Source: an uncultured Lentisphaeraceae bacterium | Lineage (GTDB): Bacteria; Verrucomicrobiota; Kiritimatiellia; RFP12; DVOR01 | Direction: 5' to 3' | Assembly: GCA_949289005.1 (NCBI GenBank) | Contig: CASEMQ010000034.1 | Location: 59,964 to 123,963 of the forward strand | DNA length: 64,000 nt | Shown here: piece after piece, positions 24,395-55,919 of the stretch | How positions within the stretch are numbered: the stretch's first letter is position 1 | How the letters are laid out: the number at the start of each line of letters is the position of its first letter | The notes under the pieces: model-generated | The model's database searches: none | The model's input: the letters and a program-made list of their open reading frames with translations, nothing else | Told to the model about the DNA's origin: nothing | Translations under genes and position numbers: made by a program

Positions 24395-24410
24395 ACACGA
24401 GGAGTTTGCC

Positions 24411-26765: not shown

Positions 26766-26769
26766 CCCC

Positions 26770-38127: not shown

Positions 38128-39696
38128 ATGACACAGACGAAGCAACCCGGTCAGCGTAAACCGCGCATTTTGATTGTAACGCCGGAGATTACCTATCTGC
38201 CCGCAGGCATGGGCAATATGGCCGACAAGTTGAGCGCGAAAGCAGGCGGCTTGGCGGACGTTTCGGCCAGCTTGGTGGCGAGCCTGTTCACGTTGGGCGC
38301 GGATGTCCATGTGGCGTTGCCGCACTACCGCCGGATGTTCCATGTGGATGTGGGGCGCCTCATCAGCGATGAGTTGCGCAAGTATCAGGCGCACCTGCCC
38401 GATTCGCGCATCCACCTGGCGGAGGACCGTTGTTTCTACTATCGCGACACCGTCTATTCGCAGGGCGACGAGAACCCGCACTTGGCGTTGGCCTTCCAGC
38501 GCGAGGTCATCAACAACATCATCCCCACCGTTCAGCCGGACTTGATCCATTGCAACGACTGGATGACGGGGCTGATCCCCGCCGCCGCGCGGCGACTGGG
38601 CATCCCCTGCCTCTTCACCATCCACAACATCCACACCGTCCACCGTTGTCTGAGTGAGATCGAGTACGCGGGTATCGACGCGGCGGAGTTCTGGAAGAAC
38701 CTCTACTATCAGCGGCCGCCCTACGACTACTTCGAGAGCCGCGACACCAACCCGGTGGACTTCCTCACCTCGGGCGTCTTCGCCGCGCACTTCATCAACT
38801 CCGTCTCGCCGACCTTCCTGGAGGAAATCGTGCGGGGGTGGTTCGACTTCATCCCCGGGCAGTTCCGCAACGAGGTCATCTCCAAGTACAACGCGGGGTG
38901 TGCGCGCGGCATCCTCAACGCGCCCGACGACAGCTACAATCCCGAGACAGATCCGAACCTGAAGGTCAACTACGACGCGCGCACCCACCACGCAGCCAAG
39001 ATTTCCAACAAGATGCAGTTCCAGGAGAAGGTCGGCCTCTTCAAGAACCCCGACGCGCCCCTCTTCTTCTGGCCCAGCCGCCTGGACCCCGTTCAGAAGG
39101 GTCCCCAGCTGCTCACGGACATCCTGTACAAGACGTTGGAGAAATACCGGGACGACAACATCCAGTTCGCGGTCGTGGCCAACGGCCCCTATCAGCAGGC
39201 ATTCCGTGACATCCTGGGCTTCCACAATCTCTACGGGCGCTTGGCGGTGTGCGATTTTGACGAGCACATCTCCCGCTTGGGCTATGCCTCCAGCGACTTC
39301 ACCCTGATGCCTTCGCTCTTCGAGCCTTGCGGGTTGCCGCAGATGGTGGCGCCCATCTATGGCTCGCTCACCGTGGCGCACGACACCGGCGGCCTGCACG
39401 ACACCGTGGAACTGCTGGACGTGGAGAAGGGTGTCGGCAATGGCTTCCCCTTCAAGTATTACGACAGCGAGGGCTTGGCCTGGGCCATCGACCGTGCGAT
39501 GGACTTCTACCGTCTGCCGACCGACGTTCGCGAGGCGCAGGTGGCGCGCATCATGGTCGAGTCAAAGAAGCGCTTCAACCACGAGTGCTGCGCCGCCGAG
39601 TACATCAAGATTTACGAGGAAATGCTTCAGCGCCCGCTCACCGAGCTCTTCGACGGCGAGGCCTCGGAGCAGAACCCTTATCACGAAGGACACTGA
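38128..39696 (+). CDS. glgA: glycogen/starch synthase (ADP-glucose type, GT5)
   Basis: KAGGLADV signature and full-length GlgA similarity. Confidence 0.9.
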   Translation: MTQTKQPGQRKPRILIVTPEITYLPAGMGNMADKLSAKAGGLADVSASLVASLFTLGADVHVALPHYRRMFHVDVGRLISDELRKYQAHLPDSRIHLAEDRCFYYRDTVYSQGDENPHLALAFQREVINNIIPTVQPDLIHCNDWMTGLIPAAARRLGIPCLFTIHNIHTVHRCLSEIEYAGIDAAEFWKNLYYQRPPYDYFESRDTNPVDFLTSGVFAAHFINSVSPTFLEEIVRGWFDFIPGQFRNEVISKYNAGCARGILNAPDDSYNPETDPNLKVNYDARTHHAAKISNKMQFQEKVGLFKNPDAPLFFWPSRLDPVQKGPQLLTDILYKTLEKYRDDNIQFAVVANGPYQQAFRDILGFHNLYGRLAVCDFDEHISRLGYASSDFTLMPSLFEPCGLPQMVAPIYGSLTVAHDTGGLHDTVELLDVEKGVGNGFPFKYYDSEGLAWAIDRAMDFYRLPTDVREAQVARIMVESKKRFNHECCAAEYIKIYEEMLQRPLTELFDGEASEQNPYHEGH

Positions 39697-39699
39697 ACC

Positions 39700-41787
39700 A
39701 TGCCTGCCGCGCGCACACGACTTCTCGACGATCCATGGTTGGCACCCTACGCCGATGTGATTGAGCGGCGTGCGGCGCGTGCGCGCGACACGGCCGCGCG
39801 CCTGACCGGCGGCGCGGCGAACGCCGCGGCATTGGCGGACTTCGCCAGCGCCCACGAGTTCTACGGGCTCCATTGCACCGACGAGGGGTGGGTTTTCCGC
39901 GAGTGGGCCCCCAACGCCACGGAGATTTGGCTGGTGGGGGACTTCAACGGCTGGGAGCGCTCGTTGGCCTATCGTGCCGTGCGGCTGCCCGGCCGCGACG
40001 TCTTTGAGTGGAAGGGACCGCCCGAGGCCATGCGCCACGGGCAATTCTTCCATCTGGAGGTCTGTTGGGACGGCGGCCGCGGCGAGCGCATCCCCGCCTA
40101 TGCGCGGCGCGTGGTGCAAGATCCCAAGACAGGCCTCTTCGCCGCGCAGGTCTGGGCGCCCGAGCCCTACGTGTGGCGCAACGCCTTCACGCGCGACCCC
40201 GGCCGGGCACCGCTCATTTACGAGGCTCACGTGGGCATGGCGCAGGAGCGCGAGGGCGTCGGCACCTACGCGGAGTTCACGAAAAACATCCTGCCGCGTA
40301 TCAAGAAGGCCGGTTACAACACGCTCCAGCTGATGGGCATCATGGAGCATCCCTATTACGGCAGCTTTGGCTACCACGTCTCCAGTTTCTTCGCGGCCAG
40401 CTCACGTTTCGGCACGCCCGAGGAGCTCAAGGCGTTGGTCGATGCGGCGCATGGCATGGGGCTGGCCGTCATCATGGACATTGTCCACTCGCACGCCGTC
40501 AAAAACGAGCGCGACGGCCTCTCCCTCTTCGACGGCACGCCGTATCAATATTTTCATGACGGCTCGCGCGGTTGGCACGATGCCTGGGACTCGCGCTGCT
40601 TCGACTATGGCAAGACCGACGTCCTCCACTTCCTCCTCTCCAATTGCCGGTTCTGGCTCGACGAGTATCGCTTCGACGGCTTCCGCTTCGATGGCGTGAC
40701 CTCCATGCTTTACCTCCACCACGGCCTGGGCGTGGATTTTTCCAACTACGGGATGTACTTCGACAGCTCGGTGGACGAGGATGCCTACACTTACCTGACC
40801 TTGGCGAACGGCGTCATCCACACCGTCCGCCCCGATGCACTCACCGTCGCCGAGGATGTCAGCGGCATGCCCGGCATCGGCGCGCCGGTCGCCGAGTGCG
40901 GCGTGGGCTTCGATTACCGCATGGCGATGGGCGTGCCTGAGTGTTGGTTCAAGTTGGTGCGCGATGTGCGCGACGAGGATTGGTCGGTCGGCTTCCTCTG
41001 GCACGAGCTGACGAACCGCCGCGCCGACGAGCGCACCGTCGGCTACGTGGAATCGCACGACCAGGCGTTGGTCGGCGGCAAGTCCTTCATCTTCCAGATG
41101 ATTGACAAAGAGATGTACACCGCCATGCACGTGGGCTCGAACAACCTCTACGTCAATCGCGGTATTGCGCTGCACAAGATGGCCCGTTTGGCGACGTTGG
41201 GGTGCGGGTGCGCCTATCTCAACTTCATGGGCAACGAGTTCGGCCACCCCGAGTGGATCGACTTCCCACGCGAGGGCAACAACAACAGCTATCACTATGC
41301 CCGCCGCCAATGGTCGCTCCGCGATGACCCCAAACTCTACTTCAAGGCGCTCGGCGACTTTGACGAGGCCATGGTCACCCTCATCCGGGATGCCGGCGTC
41401 CTCGACGGCGAGGATTGCCCCAAGCGCATCTTTGCCAGCGACGACGACAAAATCCTCGCCTTCATGCGCGGCGACCTTCTCTTCGTCTTCAACTTCCACG
41501 GCGAACACTCCTTCTCCGATTATCCCCTCATTGTCCCGCCGGGCGACTATCGGCAGACGCTCGACACCGATGCCGTCGCCTTCGGAGGCTTCGGCCGTGT
41601 CGTGGCGGATCAAGACTACCCGCTCACCACCATCACGCGCGCCAAGGAAGTCTGCTTCGCCATCCACGTCTATCTTCCCGCGCGCACCGCGCTTGTCATC
41701 CGCCGCACGCCCCCCGCGCCCGGCGCCACACTCCCGGCCGAGACGCTTCACGCGCTCGCCACCCAACAAAAGGAGCACACCCCCTGA
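39700..41787 (+). CDS. glgB: 1,4-alpha-glucan branching enzyme (GH13)
   Basis: GH13 catalytic regions (FRFDGV, GNEFGHPEW) and full-length GlgB similarity. Confidence 0.9.
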   Translation: MPAARTRLLDDPWLAPYADVIERRAARARDTAARLTGGAANAAALADFASAHEFYGLHCTDEGWVFREWAPNATEIWLVGDFNGWERSLAYRAVRLPGRDVFEWKGPPEAMRHGQFFHLEVCWDGGRGERIPAYARRVVQDPKTGLFAAQVWAPEPYVWRNAFTRDPGRAPLIYEAHVGMAQEREGVGTYAEFTKNILPRIKKAGYNTLQLMGIMEHPYYGSFGYHVSSFFAASSRFGTPEELKALVDAAHGMGLAVIMDIVHSHAVKNERDGLSLFDGTPYQYFHDGSRGWHDAWDSRCFDYGKTDVLHFLLSNCRFWLDEYRFDGFRFDGVTSMLYLHHGLGVDFSNYGMYFDSSVDEDAYTYLTLANGVIHTVRPDALTVAEDVSGMPGIGAPVAECGVGFDYRMAMGVPECWFKLVRDVRDEDWSVGFLWHELTNRRADERTVGYVESHDQALVGGKSFIFQMIDKEMYTAMHVGSNNLYVNRGIALHKMARLATLGCGCAYLNFMGNEFGHPEWIDFPREGNNNSYHYARRQWSLRDDPKLYFKALGDFDEAMVTLIRDAGVLDGEDCPKRIFASDDDKILAFMRGDLLFVFNFHGEHSFSDYPLIVPPGDYRQTLDTDAVAFGGFGRVVADQDYPLTTITRAKEVCFAIHVYLPARTALVIRRTPPAPGATLPAETLHALATQQKEHTP

Positions 41788-41823
41788 CCTGCGGGGGCAA
41801 CGAACACCAAAGGAGAGCGCAGC

Positions 41824-42510
41824 ATGGTAACGGCCATCATTCTCGCATCGGGCAAGGGCACGCGCATGGGCGCGGGGCTCGACAAGTGTTTCCTCTCGCT
41901 CGGCCCGCGCCCGGTGGTGGCTTGGTCGCTCCTCGCCTTCGAGAAATGCAAGGAGGTCGACCGTATCATCCTCACCGTGCGCAAAGACCAGATGGTGGCC
42001 GCGCGCGGGTTGCAGACGATGTTCGGCATCAGCAAACTCGAGAAAATCGTCCTGGGCGGGGCCCGCCGCCAAGACTCCGTCGCCGCCGCGCTCAAGGAAA
42101 TCGAGCCCGTGGGCACGCGCTATGTCGTTGTCCACGACGCCGCCCGCCCCTGCATCACCCCCGATCTTATCCGCGAGACGCTCAAATACGCCAAGCGTTT
42201 CGGGAGTGGCGTGGCCGCCCATCCCGTCTCAGACACCATCAAGGTCGCCGGCAAAGGCATGGTCGTCGAACGCACGCTCGACCGCTCCACCCTTTGGGCC
42301 GTGCAGACCCCTCAGGCTTTTGCGGCCGACAAGTTCCTTGCCGCCTATGAACGCTTCGGCGGCGCCAAGGACACCACCTTCACGGACGACGCTTCCATCA
42401 TGGAAGCAGCCGGCGAGACCATCCGCCTTGTGAAGTGGGAGGCCCCCAACCTCAAAATCACCACACCTATCGACCTGACCCTTGCCGCCGCCATCCTGCG
42501 CCTCAACTGA
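41824..42510 (+). CDS. ispD: 2-C-methyl-D-erythritol 4-phosphate cytidylyltransferase
   Basis: IspD motifs ILASGKGTRMG, VHDAARP; 228 aa. Confidence 0.85.
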   Translation: MVTAIILASGKGTRMGAGLDKCFLSLGPRPVVAWSLLAFEKCKEVDRIILTVRKDQMVAARGLQTMFGISKLEKIVLGGARRQDSVAAALKEIEPVGTRYVVVHDAARPCITPDLIRETLKYAKRFGSGVAAHPVSDTIKVAGKGMVVERTLDRSTLWAVQTPQAFAADKFLAAYERFGGAKDTTFTDDASIMEAAGETIRLVKWEAPNLKITTPIDLTLAAAILRLN

Positions 42511-42523
42511 AAGCCGACTCCCT

Positions 42524-43282
42524 ATGCCACGTCCCAAACGTTACGCCATCATCAGCGACATCCACGCCAACATCGAGGCCCTCGATGCCGTCCTTGCGGA
42601 CGCCAAGGCCCAGGGCGTGGATGATTACGTCTGCTTGGGCGACGTGGTGGGCTACAACGCCGCCCCCGCGGAATGCATCCATCGCATCCGCGAACTCGGC
42701 TGCAAGGTCGTCAAAGGCAACCACGACCACTACTGTTCCGACCCCACCGTCAATCTTGACGACTTCCAGCCCAATGCCGCCAGCGTCATCGAATGGACCC
42801 GCCGCAACATCGGTGAGGACGACACGCGCTGGTTGCACGAGCTCCCACTCACCGCCACCATCATGGGCTTCACCGTCGTCCACTCCACCCTCGACAGCCC
42901 CGAGCACTTCCGTTACGCCTTTGACACGCTCGACGCCGCCGATAGCTTCAACTGCCAGCGCACCCGCGTTTGTTTTCACGGCCACACTCACGTGCCCTGC
43001 ATCTTCATCCGCGCCCCCGGCGGCGACAGCAACGCCGTCGTCAAGGTCGGCCCCGCCAACGGCCTTCTCCGTCAAGGCTCTTACTTCATCAACGTCGGCT
43101 CCGTCGGTCAGCCCCGCGACGGCATCCCCAAGGCCTGCTACGTCATCTACACCGCCGAGGGCCTCACCAAACTCTCCGTCGAGTTCCGCCGCGTGGACTA
43201 CGATATCGAGGCCGCCGTCCGCCGAATCGAGGAAGCCGGCCTCCCCGCTCGCCTCATCACTCGCCTCTACACCGGGCAATGA
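42524..43282 (+). CDS. metallophosphoesterase (YfcE/MJ0936-like phosphodiesterase)
   Basis: Motifs SDIHAN, GDVVGYN, GNHD, GHTHV. Confidence 0.7.
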   Translation: MPRPKRYAIISDIHANIEALDAVLADAKAQGVDDYVCLGDVVGYNAAPAECIHRIRELGCKVVKGNHDHYCSDPTVNLDDFQPNAASVIEWTRRNIGEDDTRWLHELPLTATIMGFTVVHSTLDSPEHFRYAFDTLDAADSFNCQRTRVCFHGHTHVPCIFIRAPGGDSNAVVKVGPANGLLRQGSYFINVGSVGQPRDGIPKACYVIYTAEGLTKLSVEFRRVDYDIEAAVRRIEEAGLPARLITRLYTGQ

Positions 43283-43308
43283 CGCCGCCCCGCACCCAAA
43301 ACGTTCCC

Positions 43309-43770
43309 ATGCGCCCCCGCCGTGGCCAAGCGATGGCCGAGCTCGCCATCCTCCTCGTTGTCATTCTCATCCTCGTTTTGGGCGCCACCACCCTCGGCAA
43401 CCTCTCCCTCCAACAGCTCCGCCTTCGCCACGATGTCCGCCTCGAGGCCGGCACCGCCGCGCTCGGCCGTTCCACCGCCGGCTGGGTCGATCCCAATCCC
43501 GCCCCGGAAAACCGCTCCGACCCCGCCCACCGCGTCAACGCCTACGCCCACCTCGAAGCCTACGCCCCCGCACCCACCTCCCGCCTTCCCGCCAGCAACT
43601 ACACCCTCGCCGCCCGCGATCTCCCCGACGCCGAACTCGGCCTCGAAACCGAAACCCGCGAAAAGCGCGTTCTCCTCGAAGACGCCTTCATCGACCTCAT
43701 CTACAACAAAAACAACGTCCTTCTCCGCGAGGAAGCCACCTTCCCCGCCGCCTCCGGCCTCTGGCGCTGA
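43309..43770 (+). CDS. TadE-like N-terminal domain hypothetical membrane-anchored protein
   Basis: N-terminus RRGQAMAELAILLVVILILVLGA resembles the TadE/TadG Flp-pilus pseudopilin leader. No partner tad genes nearby. Start uncertain (ATG 43309 or 43333). Confidence 0.35.
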   Translation: MRPRRGQAMAELAILLVVILILVLGATTLGNLSLQQLRLRHDVRLEAGTAALGRSTAGWVDPNPAPENRSDPAHRVNAYAHLEAYAPAPTSRLPASNYTLAARDLPDAELGLETETREKRVLLEDAFIDLIYNKNNVLLREEATFPAASGLWR

Positions 43771-43803
43771 CCCGCCACCCCCCTTCACGAAAGGTTCGCC
43801 CCC

Positions 43804-44661
43804 ATGCTTCCCCCCAAACTCAAAGACACCGGCCTCCTCATCCCCGCCGCCATCGCCATCATCCTCATCGCCACCCTCTTCCTCTCCTGCGGCAACGTCA
43901 ACGCCGGCGAACGCGGCATCATCGTCCGTTTCGGCCGCCCCGTCCGCGTCGTCACCCCCGGCCTCTACATGAAACTCCCCTTCATCGAGACCATCACCAC
44001 CGTCAACGTCCGCACCGAGACTGTCCTCACCCGCGACATGAACGCCTCCTCCAAAGACCTCCAGGAAGTCTCCGCCTCCGTCACCACCCAGTGCCACTAC
44101 AACCCCGACAAAGTCATCGAAACCTACTCCAATTACGGCTACGCCGACTTCCAGCGCCGCATCGTCATCCCCGCCATCTATGAATCCGTCAAATCCGCCT
44201 TCTCCAAGTTCAACGCCGAGGAACTCATCACCAAGCGCGAGGAAGTCCGCACCGTCATCGACGCCTCCCTCCGCGACCTTCTCGCTTCCTACAACGTTGT
44301 CCTCGACTCCCTCCAAATCGCCGACCTCAACTTCTCCCAACGCTTCAACGACGCCATCGAAGAAAAAATGATCGCCGAGCAAGAAGCCCTCAAAGCCAAA
44401 AACGTCCTCGAACGCGTCAAAACCGAAGCCCAGCAACAACTCGAAAAAGCCAACGCCCAAGCCGAGGCCAAAGTCCTCCTCGCCAAGGCCGAGGCCGAAT
44501 CCATCCGCCTCCAGACCGAAGTCATCAAACAAAACGGTGGCGACCAATACCTCCTCCTCAAAGCCATCGAAAAATGGGACGGCCGCACCCCCACCACGCT
44601 CCTCTCCCCCAACACCCCCCTCCAACCCCTCCTTCAGATACCCAATCAATCCCAGAAATAA
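43804..44661 (+). CDS. SPFH/band-7 (prohibitin/HflC-like) membrane protein
   Basis: N-terminal TM anchor, SPFH domain (ERGIIVRFGRPVRVVTPGLYMKLPFIE) and C-terminal coiled coil. Confidence 0.8.
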   Translation: MLPPKLKDTGLLIPAAIAIILIATLFLSCGNVNAGERGIIVRFGRPVRVVTPGLYMKLPFIETITTVNVRTETVLTRDMNASSKDLQEVSASVTTQCHYNPDKVIETYSNYGYADFQRRIVIPAIYESVKSAFSKFNAEELITKREEVRTVIDASLRDLLASYNVVLDSLQIADLNFSQRFNDAIEEKMIAEQEALKAKNVLERVKTEAQQQLEKANAQAEAKVLLAKAEAESIRLQTEVIKQNGGDQYLLLKAIEKWDGRTPTTLLSPNTPLQPLLQIPNQSQK

Positions 44662-44735
44662 GGCGGATTATGCCACGGTCGCTTTTCTGTCCTGCCGGAC
44701 AGTCACGCGCTGAGACCGAGCCCTAGGAGCCGCAT

Positions 44736-47393
44736 ATGTGCAAATCCCGCCGTCTCGCCTGCTCGCTCGGCATCTTTGCCATCTGCACCCTCGCCGCCTG
44801 TGCCGCACGCCATCCCCGGGTCGCTCCCGTCGATGGCACCGCGTTGTCGGAGGCCGATGCCATCCTCGCCACCCTTACCCTTGAGGAGAAGGTCGCCCTC
44901 ACCCACGGCAATTCCACCATGTACCTTGCCGCCAACCCGGCCAAAGGCATCCCCGCCGAACTCGCCTTCTCCGACGGTACCCACACAGTCCGCCCCGAGG
45001 TTCCCCGCCAGACCTTCGGCTGGCTCCGCGACCCCAAGGACATGGCGGATTCCGCCACCGTCTTCCCCGCGCTCTCCGCCCTCGCCGCCACTTGGGACGT
45101 CGACCTTGCCCGACGCTACGGCGAGGCGCTTGGAGAGGAGGCACGCGCCCGCGGCAAGGACGTGCTTCTCGGCCCGGGCCTCAACCTCGCGCGTACGCCC
45201 CTTTGCGGCCGCAACTACGAGTATTTCGGCGAAGACCCCCTTCTTGCCGGCAAGATGGCCGCCGCCGAGATCCGCGGCATCCAGTCCCGCGACGTCGCCG
45301 CCTGCGCCAAGCACTTCGCCCTCAACAACCAGGAACTCAACCGCCACGGCGTCGATGCCTGCCCTGACATCCGCACCACCCGCGAGCTTTACCTCCCCGC
45401 CTTCGAGATGGCCGTCAAGGAAGGCGGACTCCTCGCCGTCATGGGGGCCTACAACAAGACTTGGGGCGTCCTCGCCAGCCACAACGCTTGGCTCAACCGC
45501 TCGATTCTCAAGGGCGAATGGGGCTTCCCCGGTTTCGTCGTTACCGATTGGGGCAGCCTCGGCGACACCGTCGCCGGCGCCCTCGGCGGCACCGATGTCG
45601 AGATGAACATGGGCAAATCCATCCGCTACTACCCTCGCCTCGCCGAGGCCATCCGCGCCGGCAAGATCCCCGAGGCCCGCGTGGACGACATGGCCCGTCG
45701 CGTTCTCTATGTCCAGTCCAAACTTCACCTCCTCGATGGCCGCCCCCGCCATCCCGGCTCCGTCAATACCCCCGAGCACCAAGCCCTCGCCCGCGAGGTC
45801 GGCGCCGACAGCATCGTCCTCCTCAAGAACGACGCCAACCTTCTCCCCCTCGCCCCGGACACGCTCAAAAACGTCCTTGTCGTCGGAGAGATCGCCACCA
45901 AGACCGACTGTTGGGAGGGATCGAGCGCCATGGGTAAGGCCCCCTATGAGATCCCGATCCTCGCCGGGCTTCGCGAGGCTCTCCCCGCCGCCCAAATTCA
46001 CTACCGGCCTTGGCCCACACCCCCCACCGACGTCACCGCCATTCCCGATGCCTGCCTCCTCACCGAGAACCCCACCCGGAACGCCGACCGCGGCATCCTT
46101 GAGCGCGGTTGGCTCTGGGAGCGCTTCCCCAACGAACGCCTCGAAGGCACGCCCGGCAACAGCGGCTTCACCCGCACCCCCGGCCTTCACCCCGACGAGC
46201 GCGGCACCCACTTCTCCCTCCGCTTCCGCACCCGGCTCAAAGCCCCCGAGACCGGCGACTACCGCTTCGCGCTCACCTGCGACGACGGCGCCCGCCTTCT
46301 CATCGACGGCAAAACCGTCCTCGAAGACTGGGCGGATGGCCGAGCCCGCACCCGTGCCGTCACCGTGCACCTCCGTGCCGGACAAATCTATGCCCTCACC
46401 GTTGAATATCGCCAAGGCACCGGCGCCGCCGCACTCGCATTCGGCTGGCGCCTCCCCTCCGAATCGAGCGTCGACTACACCGCCCTCCGTGCCCAGGCCC
46501 AACGTGCCGATGCCGTCCTTCTCGTCACCGGCAACCGCAAAGGCTGGGGCCCCGCCCGCGAGTGTGAATCCGGCGATCGCCCCGACATGCGCCTTCTCCC
46601 TCGCGACGACGCCGGCCTCGATGCCCTTCTCGGCGTCAACCCCCGCACCGTCGTCCTTGTCCAGGCCGGCACCCCCGTTGAGATGCCCTGGCTCGACCGT
46701 GCGCCCACGCTCCTTCTCTTCTCCTTCCTTGGCCAAGAGACAGGCCACTCCGTCGCCGATGTCCTCCTCGGCAAGCGCGAGCCCGCCGGCCGTCTCTGCC
46801 AAACCTGGCCCAAACGCCTCCAAGACTCTCCCGCCCACGCCCTCGGCGATTACGGCCCCGCCCGGGCCCTCCACAAAGAGGGCCTTCTCCTCGGCTACCG
46901 TTGGTTCGATGCCAAGGGCATCGCCCCCGCCTTCCCCTTCGGTCACGGGCTCGGCTACGCCACCTTCGCCTACGGCACCCCCGCCCTTGAGACCGATGGC
47001 GAGGCCGTCACCCTCCGCGTCCCCGTTACCAACATCTCCCAACGCCCCGGTGCCACCGTCCTCCAGCTTTACGTCGAGCCCCCCAAAGCGAGCGCCGTCC
47101 CCCGCGCGCCCCGCCAGCTCGCCGCCTTCGCCAAACTCCGCCTCGCCCCCGGCGAGACGCGTGAGGCCATCCTCGCCTTCGGCCCCCGCGCCCTTGCTTG
47201 GTGGGACGCGACGCTCCCCGGATGGCGGCACGAGGCCGGCACCTTCACCCTCGCCCTCGGCACCTCTTCCCGCGACTTCATCGCCCGCCTTCCCCTCCCG
47301 CGCGACGCTTGGGAGGTCTACATTCCCGCCGTCCCTGTCCCGGATGCCACCCCCGCATCCCTTCGTCAACTCCCCGGGGAGCCACAGAAGTAA
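44736..47393 (+). CDS. glycoside hydrolase family 3 beta-glucosidase/xylosidase lipoprotein with PA14 insertion
   Basis: Lipobox LAAC. GH3 motifs (KHFALNNQE, GFVVTDW). PA14 domain (GDYRFALTCDDGARLLIDG); 885 aa. Confidence 0.85.
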   Translation: MCKSRRLACSLGIFAICTLAACAARHPRVAPVDGTALSEADAILATLTLEEKVALTHGNSTMYLAANPAKGIPAELAFSDGTHTVRPEVPRQTFGWLRDPKDMADSATVFPALSALAATWDVDLARRYGEALGEEARARGKDVLLGPGLNLARTPLCGRNYEYFGEDPLLAGKMAAAEIRGIQSRDVAACAKHFALNNQELNRHGVDACPDIRTTRELYLPAFEMAVKEGGLLAVMGAYNKTWGVLASHNAWLNRSILKGEWGFPGFVVTDWGSLGDTVAGALGGTDVEMNMGKSIRYYPRLAEAIRAGKIPEARVDDMARRVLYVQSKLHLLDGRPRHPGSVNTPEHQALAREVGADSIVLLKNDANLLPLAPDTLKNVLVVGEIATKTDCWEGSSAMGKAPYEIPILAGLREALPAAQIHYRPWPTPPTDVTAIPDACLLTENPTRNADRGILERGWLWERFPNERLEGTPGNSGFTRTPGLHPDERGTHFSLRFRTRLKAPETGDYRFALTCDDGARLLIDGKTVLEDWADGRARTRAVTVHLRAGQIYALTVEYRQGTGAAALAFGWRLPSESSVDYTALRAQAQRADAVLLVTGNRKGWGPARECESGDRPDMRLLPRDDAGLDALLGVNPRTVVLVQAGTPVEMPWLDRAPTLLLFSFLGQETGHSVADVLLGKREPAGRLCQTWPKRLQDSPAHALGDYGPARALHKEGLLLGYRWFDAKGIAPAFPFGHGLGYATFAYGTPALETDGEAVTLRVPVTNISQRPGATVLQLYVEPPKASAVPRAPRQLAAFAKLRLAPGETREAILAFGPRALAWWDATLPGWRHEAGTFTLALGTSSRDFIARLPLPRDAWEVYIPAVPVPDATPASLRQLPGEPQK

Positions 47394-47402
47394 GGAGCGC
47401 CC

Positions 47403-48638
47403 ATGCCACAGCCATCGTTCGATGTCGTTTTTCACCTCATTGGCGGGCAGGCGCTGCCCAACGCCTTCGCCATCCACGCCATCCCAGCCGAGCATCACAT
47501 CCTCTTCGTTACCGACAAAACCGAAGGGATCGCCAAGCGTCTCCAAAACGCCTTCGCCGACAAACGGTTGGAAGCGATCCCCGTGGAGCCCTACAACATC
47601 CCCGGCCTCCAAGCCATCTTCACGGAGCAACTCCACCGCTTCGCGGGGCAACGCATGGCCGCCAACATCACCGGCGCCACCAAGCCCATGGCCCTCATGT
47701 TGGCGCACGTCGCGGCACAGATCGGGCGAATTCCCCTCTACTATATGGAGACCTCGCCCGACCCGCTAAAAATCGAAATCTGGCCCAACGCGGACAAATG
47801 GACGGCCTCCACCTCCTTCCTCGAAACGGCCATCAAGACCGTTCGCGAATACATCGCCCTCCACTCCGACGCCTTGTTCGAGCCCGGGGAGAAAACCTGC
47901 TCCGCCCAGACCATCGCCTTGGCACGCACCATCGCGGCTTGCCCGTCCATCCGCAAATCCCTCTCCTTCAAACTCGGAGGTCGTAAAAACAGCCCCGGTT
48001 TTACGGATTGCCTCCCGAACGCCAAATACGACTTCTACGAAAGTCAGTTCGACGCCACGCTCGATGACTTCGACCGCGACTTGGTCAAATATACTTGGGA
48101 CACCAAGGCGCGAAACGCCTGCCGCGCCGGCATCCAAGCCATGATTGAAACCGACGGCAAAGAGGCCACGTGCCGCTTCCTAGGCGGTATCTGGCTGGAA
48201 ATCTTCGCCTTCTCCGAATTGCAAGGGCGCGACGGTTTCTTTGACGTGCAACAAAGCGCACACGTGAAGTTCAGGCAAAACGAATACGACCGGCAAGAGT
48301 TTGACGTCGCAACCTGCACCAAACACCACGTCTACATCGTGGAATGCAAAAGCGGGCGCGTGACGAGCGAGCAAATCGCCGACCTCACCGCGAACGTTAC
48401 GCAATACGCCGGCACCTTCGGGCGCGGCGTCCTCCTGACGTCAAGTGAATGCATGGGGCACACTAGCGACCGCGAAGCCTACGAAAATCTTAAGACGCGT
48501 ATCCGCGAAAGCGACAACATCATGTTGGTGGAACTGCCCAAAAAATTGCCTCCCAACTTCTTGGCCAACGCACTCCGCTCCTGGAAAGAAGGCGTCTACA
48601 CCCCGCCGGCCCAGGGCTTCCCTCCCAAGAGACGTTGA
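47403..48638 (+). CDS. CARF-domain protein fused to PD-(D/E)xK nuclease-like domain (Card1/Can2-like cyclic-oligoadenylate-activated nuclease candidate)
   Basis: N-terminal Rossmann-like strand VVFHLIGGQALPN and CARF signature NITGATKPM. C-terminal E266...D301...E314-C-K316 restriction-endonuclease-like motif. RBS AAGGAG. Sits 275 bp upstream of a CRISPR array. Confidence 0.55.
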   Translation: MPQPSFDVVFHLIGGQALPNAFAIHAIPAEHHILFVTDKTEGIAKRLQNAFADKRLEAIPVEPYNIPGLQAIFTEQLHRFAGQRMAANITGATKPMALMLAHVAAQIGRIPLYYMETSPDPLKIEIWPNADKWTASTSFLETAIKTVREYIALHSDALFEPGEKTCSAQTIALARTIAACPSIRKSLSFKLGGRKNSPGFTDCLPNAKYDFYESQFDATLDDFDRDLVKYTWDTKARNACRAGIQAMIETDGKEATCRFLGGIWLEIFAFSELQGRDGFFDVQQSAHVKFRQNEYDRQEFDVATCTKHHVYIVECKSGRVTSEQIADLTANVTQYAGTFGRGVLLTSSECMGHTSDREAYENLKTRIRESDNIMLVELPKKLPPNFLANALRSWKEGVYTPPAQGFPPKRR

Positions 48639-48672
48639 TCGCCTCCTCCCAAACACACCCTTCTTTCCCCAA

Positions 48673-48705
48673 GCGGGGCGCGCGGACGCGCGCCCCGCCT
48701 TTTTT
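48673..48705 (+). terminator. rho-independent terminator after CARF nuclease gene
   Basis: Stem GCGGGGCGCGC/GCGCGCCCCGC, then CTTTTTTG. Confidence 0.6.
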
Positions 48706-48913
48706 GTGCCCACGCGACAAAATGCGGAGGGAGCCCAAACACCTCCAAAAACCGCCTCTCCCTCCACATTTCGAAACTCGTTCGCCTACAATGTCTTGTA
48801 AATAAAATCCATTGCGATGTCCCTCCTCCCCGTCCCCAAAAATAGCCTCCAAAACCGTCTCCCTCCGCATCCGCCCAATAAAGCGTTTGACCACAACATC
48901 AAACTATGCTACA
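48706..48913 (+). other. putative CRISPR leader (AT-enriched, promoter-like TACAAT / TTGTAAATAAAAT)
   Basis: Lies between the terminator and the first repeat, on the side opposite the degenerate terminal repeat. Locally AT-rich in a GC-rich window. Confidence 0.4.
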
Positions 48914-49176
48914 GTCACACCATCGTTCAAGGCCGAAAGGCTATTGCGACAGTTCCTTGGTGAAGAAGTCCATAATGGAATCCTTTCTGTCACACCATCG
49001 TTCAAGGCCGAAAGGCTATTGCGACTGGCGATGAGTGAGATTCATCCAGCAATTGTTTCCGGTCACACCATCGTTCAAGGCCGAAAGGCTATTGCGACTA
49101 ATGAATGCCCCGATACCAACAAGGACGATTCCGAGTCCAGTCACACCATCGTTCAAGGCCGAAAGGCGCTTGCGAT
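48914..49176 (+). CRISPR. CRISPR array: 4 repeats of 37 bp (GTCACACCATCGTTCAAGGCCGAAAGGCTATTGCGAC), 3 spacers (38, 36, 41 bp), last repeat degenerate
   Basis: Three identical repeats at 48914, 48989 and 49062 plus a degenerate fourth at 49140 (GCGCTTGCGAT end). Unique AT-richer spacers. The repeat 3' end ATTGCGAC resembles the ATTGAAAC crRNA 5' handle. Confidence 0.85.
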
Positions 49177-49297
49177 GGTCACGGATGTGGCGTAGGTTGG
49201 GCGGGGGCGTTGGGGTCTTGTCCGTGGCTGTTGTGGGGTGGGGGAGTGGGCATGGGCGAGTGGCACCGGCCATGCCTGCCGATGACGGTTGCGTGGG

Positions 49298-49486
49298 TTG
49301 TCGATAACCGGGGCCGGTGCTGTTGAAAACTTGTTGAAAGTCTGCCTGCCTCGGGGAGGGCCAAAACCGTTTTTTCAATCAGGGAGCGGGGTCGTTTTTC
49401 GAGACACGCCGTATCTCGCATCGAGGCACGGCGTGTCTTGCCTCGGGATACGGCGTGTTCCGGAATGGTTTGGCCTGTCAATAACC
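49298..49486 (+). repeat. structured intergenic repeat element, copy 3 of 3 (plus orientation)
   Basis: Hairpin GAGACACGCCGT/ACGGCGTGTCTT with G-T wobble. Flanked by TTGTCGATAACC (start) and TGTCAATAACC (end). Confidence 0.6.
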
Positions 49487-49607
49487 CGGCTTTTGCGTGT
49501 CCGCCTTCTTCCCGCTTTCTTTTCTTCCTCCCGCCTGCGCAACTCCATCGTGGACGCTTCAAATACATCACGACGGCCGGTGCGAGGTTGCGGGCGGGGA
49601 GGCGGTT

Positions 49608-49616
49608 TTGCTATAC
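49608..49616 (+). promoter_or_regulatory. extended -10 promoter TGcTATACT for rpsO (leader ~100 nt)
   Basis: TGCTATACT upstream of rpsO. The long 5' UTR is consistent with the autoregulated rpsO leader known in other bacteria. Confidence 0.45.
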
Positions 49617-49717
49617 TTGCGCGACTTTCCTGCGACGTGTCTTAGGATACGTTCCCCGTTGCGGGCAAGCCCCGACGTCCGGGGCAGCGGTGGAAGGTGT
49701 CAACCCTCAAAGCAAGG

Positions 49718-49984
49718 ATGCACACCATGATTGACAAGAATGCGATTCGCGAGCAGTTCCGTCGCCATGAGCGCGACACGGGCTCCAGCGAGGTTCAGAT
49801 CGCCACGCTGACGAAGCGTATTGAGCAACTCACCGAGCACCTGAAGGTCAACAAGAAGGACAATTCTTCGCGTTATGGCCTGATTCGCATGGTGAACAAC
49901 CGCCGCAAGCTGTTGGATTATCTGAAGCGCACGAACGAGGCGTCCTATCGCAAGGTGGTGGCGGATCTCGGCCTGCGCCGCTAA
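49718..49984 (+). CDS. rpsO: 30S ribosomal protein S15
   Basis: [54 protein letters not shown] matches S15. Start ATG 49718 or 49727. Confidence 0.85.
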
Positions 49985-53981: not shown

Positions 53982-55919
53982 TCAGGGGGTGGCGGATGGC
54001 GTGAGGCGAATGAGGAAGCCTCCGCCGGGGGCGCAGGGGAGGGTGAGGGTGTCTTGGGCGGTGACGGTGCGGGTCTGGAGGATGTAGTCGGTGGGGACGG
54101 CGTCTGAGACGGGGCTGTCGCGGAGGATGGTGGCGGTGTAGGTGACGCCGGGGACGAGGTCGGCGAGGGGAATGGCGAGGTCTCGGGCTTGGGGGCCGAC
54201 GATGGCGGCAATCCAGTGCGCGTCGCCTTTGCGGCGGCGGACGAGGAGGAGGGCGTCGGGGGCGGAGGCGGGGTCGCAGCGGGTGTCGTCCCACGTGAGG
54301 GGGAGGTCGGCGAGGAAGCGGGTATAGGCGGGTTCGCGGGCGTAGGCGGAGGGACTGTCGCAGAACACGCGGAAGTTGGTGTCCAGGAGCATGAGGAGCG
54401 CGGCTTGGCGGCAGCGGGTGCCCATGGACATGGGGCGGGAGACGTTGGGGCGAAAGGTCTGGCGAGTGGCGTTGCGCATGGCGCCGGGGGTGTAGTCGGC
54501 GGGGCCGGCGAGGAGGCGGGTGAAGGGGATGCGCAGGTCGTTGGTGATGAAGTCGAGGTCGTTGCCGGCCCATTTGGCGGTCTCCAGGCCGAGGATGCCT
54601 TCGTAGGTGAGGACGTTGGGGAAGGTGCGCGAGAGGCCGGTGGGCTTGTGGATGCCGTGGTAGTCGAGAACCATGCGGTGCTTGGCCGCAAGCGCGGCGG
54701 TCTCGCGGAGGAAGTGGGCGATGGCGGCATCGTCGCGGTCGAAGTGGTCGATCTTGAAGCCTTTGACGCCCATCCGGGCGTAGTGGGCGAAAAGCGCGTC
54801 CTGGCGGCCATAGAGCGCCCCCCAGTCGGCCCAGAGGACGAGGCCGACGTTCCTTTTTTTGGCGTACGCCAGGAGCGCGGGGAGGTCAAGCCCGGGCGCC
54901 ACTTTCAAGAGGTCGTCGCCTTGGCTCCAGCCGGAGTCGATGAGGGCGTAGGGGAGGCCGAGGTCCGCGGCGAAGTCAATGTAGGCCCGGTAGGTCTCGG
55001 TGTTTATGCCGGGCTTGAAGGGGGTGTCGTCGAGCCCGAAGGCGTTCCATCACTCCCAGGCGCACGCGCCGGGCTTGACCCAAGAGAAGTCGCCCTGGGC
55101 CGGCTCGGAGAGTGCCATGACCAGGTCATTGCCATAGAGGCCGGCAGCGTTGTCGGCCAGCATGAAGATGCGCCAAGGCAGGGCGCGGGGGCCGGGCGTG
55201 CGCACAAGCCATGGCTCGCGGGCGACGACAAGGCGCTGGCGGCCGGTGGCCTCCACTTTGGCCGGGAAACGCGCCATGGCCGCGACGAGCCGCCCAGGGG
55301 GCTCAATCGGGCGGCGTAGGTTCAGCCCGGGATAGTCGCGCACCTCGGCCTCCGCAAGGGCGAGTGCCACGCCATCGCCCAACAGCGTGACGGGAAGGTA
55401 GATCAAGTGCTTAGGGTCGATTTTCCCAAGGGCGGAGCGGTTGTGGGTGGACTCGAAGTCGCCTTGGAAGTGGTCGCCGCGGTATCCCGCCGGATTGTAG
55501 CCATAGAGCAGCTCGGGCTCGCCCGCGGGGGCGAAGGTGAACGTCTCGTCGCGAATTTCCGCCTCGCCCGCCGCCACAATCGTCCAACGATAGGCCACGC
55601 CTTGGTCGGTGGACAGGATGGTGAGCGACAGGTCGCCAAAGTCCGCCGTCGCGCAGTTGGCTTTCAGGTCGATGTGTGCGCGCACGGTGTGGAACGGCAC
55701 CTCGGCGGAGAAGTCGTGCGCAAAGGTCGTCACCCGCGGCGTGCCGCCGAGCCTTGCCCCTGCCACCTCTAGGCCGATGGGCGCAGGCGCCAAGATTGGC
55801 TTGCCCCGGCGGGAGACGGCAAAAAGCAATCGTTCGCCTTCCCGCGAGACGGTGAGCGTATTGGTCCCATCGGGGGAGGTGACGGACATTAGCATGGCAA
55901 GCGCGGCCTCGGGCAACAT
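53982..55919 (-). pseudogene. glycoside hydrolase family 97 alpha-glucosidase gene interrupted by one in-frame TGA (minus strand 55052-55050)
   Basis: ORFs 55919-55050 and 54908-53982 are in the same frame. Read-through gives ...SWVKPGACAWE*WNAFGLDD..., and the stop sits where GH97 proteins carry a conserved Trp-rich motif. Confidence 0.7.

What the first reader, a model, noticed from the sequence alone, without database searches (positions are those of the whole stretch)
47403..48638. Stand-alone CARF plus PD-(D/E)xK nuclease (Card1/Can2-like) beside a CRISPR array, with no cas genes within 47 kb upstream or 15 kb downstream
The 411-aa protein starts with a Rossmann-like strand and Gly-rich loop (VVFHLIGGQALPN) and carries the CARF signature NITGATKPM. 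Its C-terminal half has the restriction-endonuclease-like catalytic triad: E266 (WLEIFAF), D301 (FDVATC) and E314-x-K316 (VYIVECKSG). Card1/Can2 proteins have exactly this architecture and are cA4-activated DNA/RNA nucleases that act as type III CRISPR ancillary effectors. Here it is sandwiched between a GH3 beta-glucosidase and a 4-repeat array. No Cas10, Csm/Cmr, Cas6 or Cas1/Cas2 is present anywhere in the window. Either a type III locus elsewhere supplies the cyclic oligoadenylate, or this is a remnant or minimal orphan module. It could also be a CARF nuclease responding to a different signalling nucleotide.
Basis: partly seen in the sequence, partly recalled or inferred. Interest (0 to 1): 0.8.

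Follow-up and report, generated by a model that had tools for sequence, protein, structure and literature searches.

The report
Can2 nuclease with live satellite CRISPR array
This is an ordinary member of the known Can2/Card1 family of CRISPR "alarm-activated" nucleases, sitting with a small but actively growing CRISPR array far from the rest of its type III-B immune system, so it is a split-up known system rather than a new one.

Summary
ORF 47403-48638 (+) encodes a 411-aa CARF + PD-(D/E)xK protein. A 4-repeat CRISPR array lies at 48914-49176, and no cas gene occurs anywhere in the 64-kb window.

The protein belongs to the Can2/Card1 family:
- Both Pfam Card1 domains score above their cut-offs.
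- A family profile hits Can2 (7BDV) at 3e-68.
- The AF2 model (pLDDT 95) matches Can2, Card1 and VC1899.
- The catalytic residues E266/E299/D301/E314/K316 are conserved, as are three of the four Can2 cA4-contact residues (T37, K94, Y114).

It is not a remnant:
- Its closest relatives (45% identity) sit inside type III-B Cmr loci that have the same repeat family and leader.
- The gene is under purifying selection (dN/dS 0.15).
- Strains 96-97% identical carry six different arrays with 27 spacers, including a leader-end gain.
- Spacers are strongly antisense-biased (18:2).

A Can2-less III-B + Cas1-Cas2 locus, with an HD-less Cas10 that keeps GGDD, co-occurs in 5 of 8 of the same metagenome samples. 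It also shares an overlapping protospacer with the orphan array.

Best reading: a trans-acting effector-plus-array satellite of a type III-B system encoded elsewhere in this Lentisphaeraceae genome. This is a known kind and of modest interest. The partner locus was not shown to lie in the same genome.

The parts
47392..47397 (+). Shine-Dalgarno AAGGAG, 5 nt before the ATG. It overlaps the TAA stop of the upstream GH3 gene, so the Can2 gene is probably co-transcribed with GH3.
   Evidence: Read from the sequence. The GH3 ORF ends at 47393.
47403..48638 (+). Can2/Card1-family gene (411 aa): CARF sensor fused to a PD-(D/E)xK nuclease.
47418..47822 (+). CARF domain (about aa 6-140). It carries the TG(G/A)TK motif (T90, T93, K94) and the cA4-contact equivalents T37, K94 and Y114.
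   Evidence: Pfam PF23400 covers aa 9-119. T90, T93, K94 and Y114 are invariant in 112 homologues. Residues were mapped onto SthCan2 S19/T42/K99/Y118 through and PMC7969007.
48162..48533 (+). PD-(D/E)xK nuclease domain (about aa 254-377) with catalytic residues E266, E299, D301, E314 and K316.
   Evidence: Pfam PF09002. E266, D301 and K316 are invariant, and E299 and E314 are at least 90% conserved, in 112 homologues. They align to SthCan2 E243, E276, D278, E291 and K293.
48673..48706 (+). Intrinsic-terminator-like hairpin (11 G-C pairs) followed by a T-run. It separates the Can2 transcript from the array leader.
   Evidence: (I4).
48707..48913 (+). CRISPR leader. It holds three copies of the motif CTCCCTCC(A/G)CAT: inverted at 48722-48733 and direct at 48757-48768 and 48859-48870. 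A promoter-like site TTGACC-17-TACAGT lies at 48887-48915.
   Evidence: The same leader boxes occur next to cas1-cas2 in related III-B loci. The leader is identical except for one mismatch in strain L016. Promoter scan; inverted repeat I5.
48914..49176 (+). CRISPR array with 4 repeats of 37 nt and 3 spacers (48951-48988, 49026-49061, 49099-49139). The degenerate terminal repeat is at 49140-49176. The repeat forms a GGCC-GAAA-GGCU hairpin followed by an 8-nt AUUGCGAC handle.

Best explanation
The ORF encodes a functional Can2/Card1-type ancillary nuclease. By homology it should be a homodimer whose CARF domains bind cyclic tetra-adenylate (cA4) made by a type III Cas10. Binding should switch on the metal-dependent PD-(D/E)xK sites, which cut ssRNA and ssDNA or nick dsDNA and so arrest the infected cell.

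The gene and the adjacent leader-plus-array form a satellite of a type III-B (Cmr) system encoded elsewhere in the same Lentisphaeraceae genome. In this model Cas1-Cas2 from that locus add spacers to the array. Its transcripts are trimmed to crRNAs carrying the 8-nt AUUGCGAC tag and loaded into Cmr. Recognition of a complementary phage mRNA then makes the HD-less, GGDD-bearing Cas10 synthesise cOA, which diffuses to Can2.

The most likely partner is the Can2-less 'L019-type' locus: small ORF-Cas10-Cmr3-Cmr4-Cmr5-Cmr6-Cmr1-Cas1-Cas2-array.

- **Shown here:** family membership, conserved catalytic and ligand-contact residues, purifying selection, spacer turnover with polarity, antisense spacer bias, homology of repeat and leader to III-B-linked arrays, and sample co-occurrence with the L019-type locus.
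- **Inferred:** cA4 as the ligand, nuclease substrates, dimerisation, that the partner locus lies in the same genome, and that its Cas1-Cas2 and crRNA-processing machinery accept a repeat differing at 7 of 37 positions.
For: **Family membership**
- Both Pfam Card1 domains score above their cut-offs, and PADLOC CARF_PDDEXK gives 8e-33.
- A 112-sequence family profile hits Can2 7BDV at 3.4e-68, Card1 6WXW at 1.6e-44 and VC1899 at 1e-43.
- The AF2 model has pLDDT 95.2 and pTM 0.92. Its top Foldseek hits are Can2, Card1, VC1899, DbCan2, Cdn1, TbrCan2 and Can1, with E down to 8e-19 and TM 0.6-0.75.

**Conserved residues**
- T90, T93, K94, Y114, E266, D301 and K316 are invariant; E299 and E314 are at least 90% conserved.
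- T37, K94 and Y114 correspond to SthCan2 cA4 contacts T42, K99 and Y118. The truly orphan VC1899 has lost all four contacts.

**Ancestry in type III-B loci**
- The nearest homologues (44-46% identity) lie inside III-B loci.
- Those loci have repeats of the same family and homologous leader boxes.
- Their Cas10 proteins are 438-475 aa, show no HD-domain match in Pfam or PADLOC, and keep GGDD.

**The gene is maintained**
- dN/dS is 0.15 at dS 0.59 against the 82%-identical orthologue, which sits in the same GH3-Can2-array context.

**The array is alive**
- Strains 96-97% identical in the flanks carry 6 different arrays with 27 distinct spacers.
- L022 equals L021, L023 and L026 plus two extra leader-proximal spacers.
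- Two arrays carry overlapping spacers from one protospacer.

**RNA-targeting logic**
- Stop trinucleotides number 50 on the spacer strand and 20 on its complement. By spacer the count is 18:2 (p = 4e-4).
- Two spacers (19 and 22) are antisense to SD+ATG gene starts, and spacers 4, 16 and 23 cover an ATG start.

**Candidate partner**
- The Can2-less III-B + Cas1-Cas2 locus appears in L019, L030-L037 and L043-L047.
- It shares 5 of 8 ENA samples with the orphan module. The hypergeometric p is about 4e-7 if the series holds about 247 samples.
- Its spacers have the same GC and mean length (0.51 / 38.2 against 0.50 / 38.2).
- One of its spacers overlaps an orphan-array spacer at 24 of 25 nt, in the same orientation.
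- In both repeat types the hairpin and the 8-nt handle are conserved, with covariation in the stem.
Against: - No Cas10, Cmr, Cas1, Cas2 or Cas6 gene is in the 64-kb window, and I could not read the rest of this genome. The trans partner is therefore inferred, not seen.
- The L019-type repeat differs from the window repeat at 7 of 37 positions, and its leader is the least similar of those compared (50%).
- Sample co-occurrence could reflect two co-resident organisms. The figure of about 247 samples is my assumption from the accession range.
- No Cas6 was recognisable in any related locus, so crRNA processing is unexplained.
- The antisense bias is not significant in the cas-linked arrays used as controls: L019-type 18:9 (p = 0.12), L005-type 9:10.
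- In sample ERZ16268227 a cas1-deleted L019-type locus (L045) coexists with an orphan array (L020) that shares no spacer with the arrays found beside the same deletion elsewhere. Contig pairing within samples is therefore uncertain.
- No protospacer was found in IMG/VR or INPHARED.
- The residue equivalent to the fourth Can2 cA4 contact (S19) is Gly14.
Confidence: 0.75

Rival explanations
1. Same mechanism, different partner. Can2 and the array serve a type III system in this genome that is not the L019-type locus. It could be another of the many minimal-Cas10 III-B lineages, or a locus whose array carries exactly the window's repeat.
For: The L019-type repeat differs at 7 of 37 positions and has the least similar leader. 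The window repeat and leader are closer to the L005-type (5 of 37; 61%). The Cas10 search returned about a dozen further lineages at 54-61% identity whose loci I could not inspect, and a Cas10 that NCBI names as from Candidatus Spyradenecus sp. (P0379).
Against: Co-occurrence in 5 of 8 samples, identical spacer GC and length, and one overlapping protospacer all point to the L019-type locus. That locus also lacks precisely the effector that the window supplies.
Confidence: 0.15
2. Decaying remnant. A former type III-B locus lost its cas genes, leaving a non-functional Can2 gene and a dead mini-array.
For: There are no cas genes in 64 kb. The array has only 4 repeats, the last degenerate. Some co-occurring III-B loci carry a cas1 deletion.
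Against: dN/dS is 0.15 over dS 0.59 with an intact ORF in every strain seen. Catalytic and ligand residues are intact. There are six array variants and 27 spacers among near-identical strains, with a leader-end gain. The leader differs at a single position in L016, and its boxes are conserved in other loci. The degenerate last repeat is also present in the cas-linked arrays.
Confidence: 0.04
3. Can2 is uncoupled from CRISPR. It responds to a signal from a non-Cas10 cyclase (CBASS-like or mCpol), or to a different oligoadenylate (cA6 or cA3), and its position next to the array is historical.
For: Can2-family members differ in ligand range: Cdn1 binds cA3, cA4 and cA6 and is activated by cA4 and cA6 (PMC12825302). 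An orphan family member, VC1899, exists (PMC7969007). The S19 equivalent is Gly here.
Against: Unlike VC1899, three of the four cA4 contacts are kept. The closest relatives are all inside III-B loci with GGDD Cas10. The gene has stayed glued to a live, type III-like array across species-level divergence.
Confidence: 0.06

Closest known systems
Can2 / Card1 (DUF1887; CARF4-clade CARF + PD-(D/E)xK): SthCan2 7BDV, TsuCard1 6WXW/6XL1, TbrCan2 8Q3Y, DbCan2 8BAO
   Same: Same two-domain architecture and fold. Same catalytic E...ExD...ExK residues and the TGxTK, Thr and Tyr cA4 contacts. Its closest relatives are type III-B ancillary genes.
   Different: Only 16-17% identical to the solved proteins. 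It is 411 aa, with an extra beta-hairpin at about aa 120-140 and a strain-specific 5-6-aa loop insertion at aa 193-202. Gly replaces the SthCan2 Ser19 contact. The gene is not in a cas operon but sits behind a GH3 gene, with only an array beside it.
VC1899 of Vibrio cholerae (1XMX), the orphan DUF1887 protein
   Same: Same family and fold, and likewise encoded away from any type III cas genes.
   Different: VC1899 has lost all four conserved cA4-contact residues and is not regulated by cA4 (PMC7969007). The window protein keeps three of the four, sits beside a live CRISPR array, and has III-B-embedded sister genes.
Type III-B (Cmr) systems with an HD-less, cyclase-only Cas10 that rely on cOA effectors
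   Same: Related loci have Cas10 (GGDD present, no HD-domain match), Cmr3, Cmr4, Cmr5, Cmr6, Cmr1, Cas1, Cas2 and an array of the same repeat family. According to PMC11229360, only 39% of Cas10s have a recognisable HD domain.
   Different: Here the effector gene and a second array are physically separated from the cas operon. The candidate partner locus has no effector of its own. No Cas6 was recognisable, and a conserved unannotated ORF of 131-143 aa precedes Cas10.
Cdn1 (Psychrobacter lutiphocae; 9U49/8Z4I), a Can2-family nuclease activated by both cA4 and cA6
   Same: Same family, and associated with type III-B.
   Different: It belongs to a distinct clade. There is no evidence here for or against a broadened ligand range.

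Membership tests
Can2/Card1 (DUF1887, CARF4 clade) | N-terminal Card1-type CARF domain | tested here: met
   PF23400 scores 35.6 bits against a cut-off of 24.6, over aa 9-119. Fold match.
Can2/Card1 (DUF1887, CARF4 clade) | C-terminal PD-(D/E)xK nuclease domain with catalytic Glu/Asp/Glu-x-Lys | tested here: met
   PF09002 scores 43.7 bits against a cut-off of 26.4. E266, E299, D301, E314 and K316 align to SthCan2 E243, E276, D278, E291 and K293. They are invariant or at least 90% conserved in 112 homologues.
Can2/Card1 (DUF1887, CARF4 clade) | Full-length structural similarity to solved Can2/Card1 | tested here: met
   The AF2 model has pLDDT 95.2. Foldseek gives 7BDV at 8e-19 (TM 0.61-0.75) and 6XL1 at 9e-19, with 16-17% sequence identity. 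The family profile hits 7BDV at 3.4e-68.
Can2/Card1 (DUF1887, CARF4 clade) | Conserved cA4-contact residues (SthCan2 S19, T42, K99, Y118) | tested here: met
   Three of four are kept: T37, K94 and Y114. The S19 position is G14, which is the consensus of this subfamily (residue list from PMC7969007).
Can2/Card1 (DUF1887, CARF4 clade) | Encoded with, or in the same genome as, a type III system with a cyclase-active Cas10 | tested here: inconclusive
   Not met within the window. Met for the closest homologues. For this genome there is only indirect evidence: sample co-occurrence and a shared protospacer with a Can2-less III-B locus.
Can2/Card1 (DUF1887, CARF4 clade) | cA4-dependent, metal-dependent nuclease activity; homodimer | not testable with these tools
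   This needs biochemistry.
Functional CRISPR array of the type III-B-linked repeat family | Regular direct repeats with unique spacers of similar length, and a hairpin plus 8-nt handle in the repeat | tested here: met
   Four 37-nt repeats and spacers of 36-41 nt. GGCC-GAAA-GGCU hairpin followed by AUUGCGAC, with covariation across loci.
Functional CRISPR array of the type III-B-linked repeat family | Leader homologous to the leaders of cas-adjacent arrays | tested here: met
   The CTCCCTCCRCAT boxes and the TTGAC...TAC(A/T)GT promoter-like element are shared with L005, L006, L014, L017 and L019.
Functional CRISPR array of the type III-B-linked repeat family | Spacer turnover with leader-end polarity among strains | tested here: met
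   Six array variants and 27 spacers were found. L022 equals [21, 22] followed by the [16-20] array of L021, L023 and L026.
Functional CRISPR array of the type III-B-linked repeat family | Adjacent cas genes | tested here: not met
   None in the window, nor in 12 orthologous loci.
Degenerate orphan CARF protein (VC1899-like) | Loss of the cOA-binding residues | tested here: not met
   T37, K94 and Y114 are retained, whereas VC1899 has D34, R96 and V115 at these positions.

The most novel reading that the evidence does not exclude
The genome has no Cas10 at all. In that case Can2 and its leader-plus-array would be a self-standing module. Its spacers would be acquired, and its nuclease activated, by machinery that is not a type III system: for example a non-Cas10 cyclase, or cOA and Cas1-Cas2 supplied by a co-resident mobile element or neighbouring organism.
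Probability: 0.05. Interest if true: 0.75.

Novelty: new member of a known kind. Interest (0 to 1): 0.3.

Why it matters
This is a clean natural example of a type III-B system split across a genome.
- The only recognisable cOA effector and a second, actively acquiring array sit behind a housekeeping glycosidase gene.
- The probable partner cas operon has an HD-less Cas10 and no effector of its own.
- Adjacency-based annotation would therefore call one locus 'orphan' and the other 'effector-less'.

It also raises small, testable questions.
- Can one Cas1-Cas2 and crRNA-processing set serve repeats that differ at 7 of 37 positions?
- What replaces Cas6 in this III-B lineage?

It does not change what is known about Can2/Card1.

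Tried and rejected
- **First AF2 model.** With only 5 sequences the model was unusable (pLDDT 59.6). It was replaced by a 112-sequence alignment.
- **Finding the window's genome.** The genome-contig scan for the repeat core did not find it; it found only a Kiritimatiellaeota-labelled MAG carrying the L005-type locus. The JGI metagenome scan for the window repeat found nothing.
- **Protospacers.** Six spacer cores searched in IMG/VR gave no hit. All eight window, L016 and L002 spacers searched against INPHARED phages also gave no hit.
- **Rfam on 48600-49800.** Nothing was significant.
- **Synteny around rpsO.** It is not conserved in other Lentisphaeraceae, so the insertion could not be dated.
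- **Cas6.** None was recognisable in related loci with PADLOC or Pfam.
- **Antisense-bias control.** The bias is not significant in cas-linked arrays: L019-type 18:9, L005-type 9:10.
- **Spacer gain versus intact cas1.** The attempted link is suggestive for samples 085 versus 226 and 139, but sample 227 contradicts it. I do not rely on it.
- **GC dip over Can2.** Read as recent horizontal transfer into this site, this is rejected: the III-B-embedded Can2 of L005 has the same low GC (0.59 against 0.75 for its Cas10).
- **CARF census paper.** The Makarova 2020 paper could not be retrieved.
- **Mobile-element carriage.** Rejected: the flanks are conserved housekeeping genes in all 12 orthologous loci.
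Full report
**1. The observation**

The window holds a 411-aa ORF at 47403-48638 on the + strand. An AAGGAG ribosome-binding site overlaps the stop codon of the upstream 885-aa GH3 glycosidase gene.

After the stop codon there is a strong terminator-like hairpin at 48673-48698 followed by a T-run. A leader of about 210 nt follows, then four 37-nt repeats at 48914-49176. The spacers are 38, 36 and 41 nt, and the last repeat is degenerate. The repeat core occurs 4 times against 0 expected by chance.

I called about 48 genes using the GC3 pattern and scanned them with Pfam. The 38.1-47.4 kb stretch (genes at 38128-47393) was not scanned directly; I annotated it through its syntenic, 92%-identical counterpart L002. 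The ORFs with no Pfam hit were rescanned with PADLOC.

Everything is housekeeping: LpxI, isocitrate/isopropylmalate dehydrogenase, an AcrB-type efflux pump, NifS/NifU, aminoacyl-tRNA synthetases, glycogen genes, GH3, S15, RecO, RpoN and so on. No cas gene is present.

**2. What the protein is**

- Both Pfam Card1 domains score above their curated cut-offs (CARF_Card1 35.6 bits against 24.6; Card1_endonuc 43.7 against 26.4).
- PADLOC's CARF4--CARF_PDDEXK model matches end to end at 8e-33.
- An exhaustive HMMER search found 2096 cluster representatives at E <= 1e-3 and 439 at E <= 1e-10. This is a large, known family.
- In an alignment of 112 representatives reaching down to about 20% identity, T90, T93, K94, Y114, E266, D301 and K316 are invariant. 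E299, E314, W264 and G262 are at least 90% conserved.
- The profile of that alignment hits Can2 7BDV at 3.4e-68, DbCan2 8BAO at 1.4e-46, Card1 6WXW at 1.6e-44 and VC1899 at 1.1e-43.
- With this alignment AlphaFold2 gives pLDDT 95.2 and pTM 0.92; a first attempt with five sequences failed.
- Foldseek against the PDB returns Can2, Card1, VC1899, DbCan2, Cdn1, TbrCan2 and Can1 as the top hits, with E down to 8e-19 and TM 0.6-0.75.

Zhu et al. 2021 (PMC7969007) list the SthCan2 nuclease residues E276 and D278. They also list four cA4 contacts conserved between Can1 and Can2: S19, T42, K99 and Y118. In the truly orphan VC1899 these four are D9, D34, R96 and V115, and that protein is not cA4-regulated.

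The HMMER alignments map these positions onto the window protein:
- Nuclease residues: E299 and D301, plus E314-x-K316 and E266.
- cA4 contacts: G14, T37, K94 and Y114.

The nuclease site is therefore intact and three of the four ligand contacts are kept. The protein looks like a working cA4 sensor and not a VC1899-like degenerate.

**3. Where the module comes from**

Only four close homologues exist in the 5.8-billion-protein index.

- The two at 44-46% identity sit inside complete type III-B loci. One layout is small ORF-Cas10-Cmr3-Cmr4-Cmr5-Cmr6-Cmr1-Can2-Cas1-Cas2-array (L005-L010). The other is array-Can2-small ORF-Cas10-Cmr3-Cmr4-Cmr5-Cmr6-Cmr1 (L011) (subunits named with PADLOC on the homologous L019 locus).
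- Their repeats belong to the same family as the window's. For example GTCGCACCATCTCCCAAAGCCGAAAGGCTATTGCGAC differs at 5 of 37 positions.
- All keep a 4-bp GAAA-tetraloop hairpin, with covariation, followed by the 8-nt handle AUUGCGAC.
- The window leader shares the CTCCCTCC(A/G)CAT boxes and the TTGAC...TAC(A/T)GT promoter-like element with the cas2-adjacent leaders.
- The Cas10 proteins of these loci are only 438-475 aa, show no HD-domain match in Pfam or PADLOC, and keep the GGDD cyclase motif. Immunity in this lineage should therefore depend on cOA signalling to an effector such as Can2.

The window's Can2-leader-array unit is thus a piece of this III-B family that now stands alone between GH3 and rpsO.

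**4. Remnant or working part?**

Four lines of evidence argue that it works.

(a) The 82%-identical orthologue (L002) and twelve loci at 95% identity or more (L016, L020-L029, L001) have the same GH3-Can2-array-rpsO context. dN/dS is 0.15 at dS 0.59.

(b) Strains whose flanks are 96.5-97% identical to the window, one of them (L016) differing at a single leader position, carry six different arrays totalling 27 distinct spacers. L022 is exactly the array of L021, L023 and L026 with two extra spacers at the leader end. Spacers 4 and 23 are independent captures of the same protospacer, and spacer 16 abuts it. This is the signature of ongoing, polarised Cas1-Cas2 acquisition, yet no cas1 is nearby.

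(c) Read on the transcribed strand, the spacers contain 50 stop trinucleotides against 20 on the complement. By spacer the count is 18:2 with 7 ties (sign test p = 4e-4). Two spacers (19 and 22) are the antisense of a Shine-Dalgarno sequence plus ATG, and spacers 4, 16 and 23 are antisense to an ATG start. The crRNAs would therefore pair with mRNAs, as type III targeting requires. Caveat: the same test is only a trend in the L019-type arrays (18:9, p = 0.12) and is absent in the L005-type arrays (9:10).

(d) Catalytic and ligand residues are intact (section 2).

**5. A candidate partner**

A Cas1 search from the L005 locus led to L019. This is a III-B + Cas1-Cas2 + array locus of the same family that has no Can2 gene between Cmr1 and Cas1. 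Further copies (L030-L037, L043-L047) show the same organisation and are 94.5-98.7% identical to one another.

Among ENA assemblies of one accession series:
- The orphan Can2 module was seen in ERZ16268131, 092, 227, 226, 085, 139, 091 and 151.
- The Can2-less III-B locus was seen in ERZ16268095, 053, 092, 298, 085, 226, 139 and 227.
- Five samples are shared.

The hypergeometric p is about 4e-7 if the series has about 247 samples. That number is my assumption from the accession range. Logan run ERR10610479 also has both.

Other points in favour:
- Spacer GC and mean length are the same in the two array types (0.50 / 38.2 and 0.51 / 38.2) and differ from the L005-type (0.59 / 37.1).
- Orphan spacer 19 and L019 spacer 2 overlap at 24 of 25 nt in the same orientation, over the start of the same gene in two virus variants (ATG versus GTG).
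- Each of the relevant 90% clusters has exactly one NCBI-sourced member. For Can2 and GH3 this is the window's 501-kb contig. For the L019-type Cas10 and Cas1 it is a 49,568-nt contig.

Points against this pairing:
- The L019-type repeat differs from the window repeat at 7 of 37 positions, and its leader is the least similar of those compared.
- Co-occurrence is not linkage.
- Contig pairing inside samples is uncertain. Strains L043-L045 carry a deletion of about 690 nt that removes most of cas1. In sample ERZ16268227 such a locus coexists with an orphan array sharing no spacer with those seen beside the same deletion in samples 226 and 139.

I put the L019-type locus as partner at roughly 55-60%. 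A trans type III partner of some kind I put at about 90%.

**6. The organism**

The S15 protein clusters with sequences named Candidatus Spyradenecus and Lentisphaeraceae bacterium (taxonomy). A Cas10 of this minimal III-B type is annotated from Candidatus Spyradenecus sp. (P0379).

**7. Mechanism**

The mechanism is inferred by homology with Can2 and Card1 (PMC7969007; PMC12825302).
1. The array is transcribed from the leader promoter.
2. Transcripts are cut at the base of the repeat hairpin to give the 8-nt AUUGCGAC tag. The nuclease that does this is unknown, because no Cas6 was recognised.
3. The crRNAs are loaded into Cmr.
4. Pairing with a phage mRNA activates the Cas10 Palm domains to make cOA, probably cA4.
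5. cA4 binds the CARF dimer of Can2 and activates the PD-(D/E)xK sites, which degrade ssRNA and ssDNA or nick DNA.

Can2 itself is probably co-transcribed with the GH3 gene.

**8. Comparison with what is known, and verdict**

The protein is a new member of the Can2/Card1 family. All sequence and structure criteria are met; the biochemistry is untested. Ancillary effectors and arrays used in trans are not new concepts, and HD-less, cyclase-only Cas10s are common (PMC11229360).

What is mildly notable is the population-level evidence that a cas-less array plus effector is kept alive as a satellite. It is also notable that the probable partner operon has neither an HD nuclease nor its own effector. 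Novelty: new member of a known kind. Interest: about 0.3.

The one genuinely novel reading I cannot exclude is that this genome has no Cas10 at all. I give that about 5%.

Noticed in passing
window 53985-54908 and 55053-55919 (- strand): A GH97 glycosidase is split into two ORFs: the N-terminal domain on one, and the catalytic and C-terminal domains on the other, about 145 nt apart. This may be a frameshift, a pseudogene or an assembly error.
   Followed up: no
window 49397-49465: Three 22-nt tandem units form a 34-nt imperfect palindrome in the 520-nt non-coding stretch between the array and rpsO. The element is conserved in strain L016. No Rfam family matched. It may be part of the rpsO 5' region.
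   Followed up: partly
window 48722-48733, 48757-48768, 48859-48870; also leaders of L005, L006, L014, L017, L019, L030: The motif CTCCCTCC(A/G)CAT occurs three times in the leader, once inverted. It recurs in every leader of this repeat family. It is a candidate protein-binding site for leader recognition or regulation.
   Followed up: partly
L005:749-1153, L011:2284-2679, L019:346-777: A conserved ORF of 131-143 aa (GNTFPLTLVRGWRV...SFWGHEETR...WVLSPDVAGGGRP) always lies immediately upstream of, and overlaps, the minimal Cas10 gene. It has no Pfam or PADLOC match. It could be an unrecognised subunit of this III-B variant.
   Followed up: partly
L005, L011, L019, L031-L034 (related III-B loci): No Cas6 is recognisable in any of these loci, although the repeats have a typical Cas6-type hairpin plus 8-nt handle. 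The crRNA-processing enzyme is unknown or encoded elsewhere.
   Followed up: partly
L043:15960-16552, L044:6733-7325, L045: Some strains of the Can2-less III-B locus carry a deletion of about 690 nt. It removes the C-terminal two-thirds of cas1 and the start of cas2, leaving a 115-aa fusion ORF.
   Followed up: partly
window 47403-48638; L005:6983-8155: Can2 genes have much lower GC (0.59; GC3 0.75-0.77) than neighbouring genes (0.69-0.75; GC3 about 0.9). This holds even where Can2 is embedded in the cas operon. It suggests the effector moves as a cassette.
   Followed up: partly
window 47979-48009 (aa 193-202): The window's Can2 has an in-frame replacement and insertion (LGGRKNSPGFTD against LSKFVD) that is absent from L016, L020 and L002 (cluster members are 405-406 aa). 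It lies in a loop between the CARF and nuclease domains.
   Followed up: yes
window 24312-28232: An 817-aa Ser/Thr kinase gives strong PADLOC PD-T4-6 and mad6 kinase-domain hits. It is followed by an unannotated 241-aa ORF and a SIR2-family protein. This may be only generic kinase similarity. A defence role was not examined.
   Followed up: no
window 30766-36297: A very large (1844-aa) BspA-type leucine-rich-repeat surface protein lies next to PEP-CTERM proteins.
   Followed up: no
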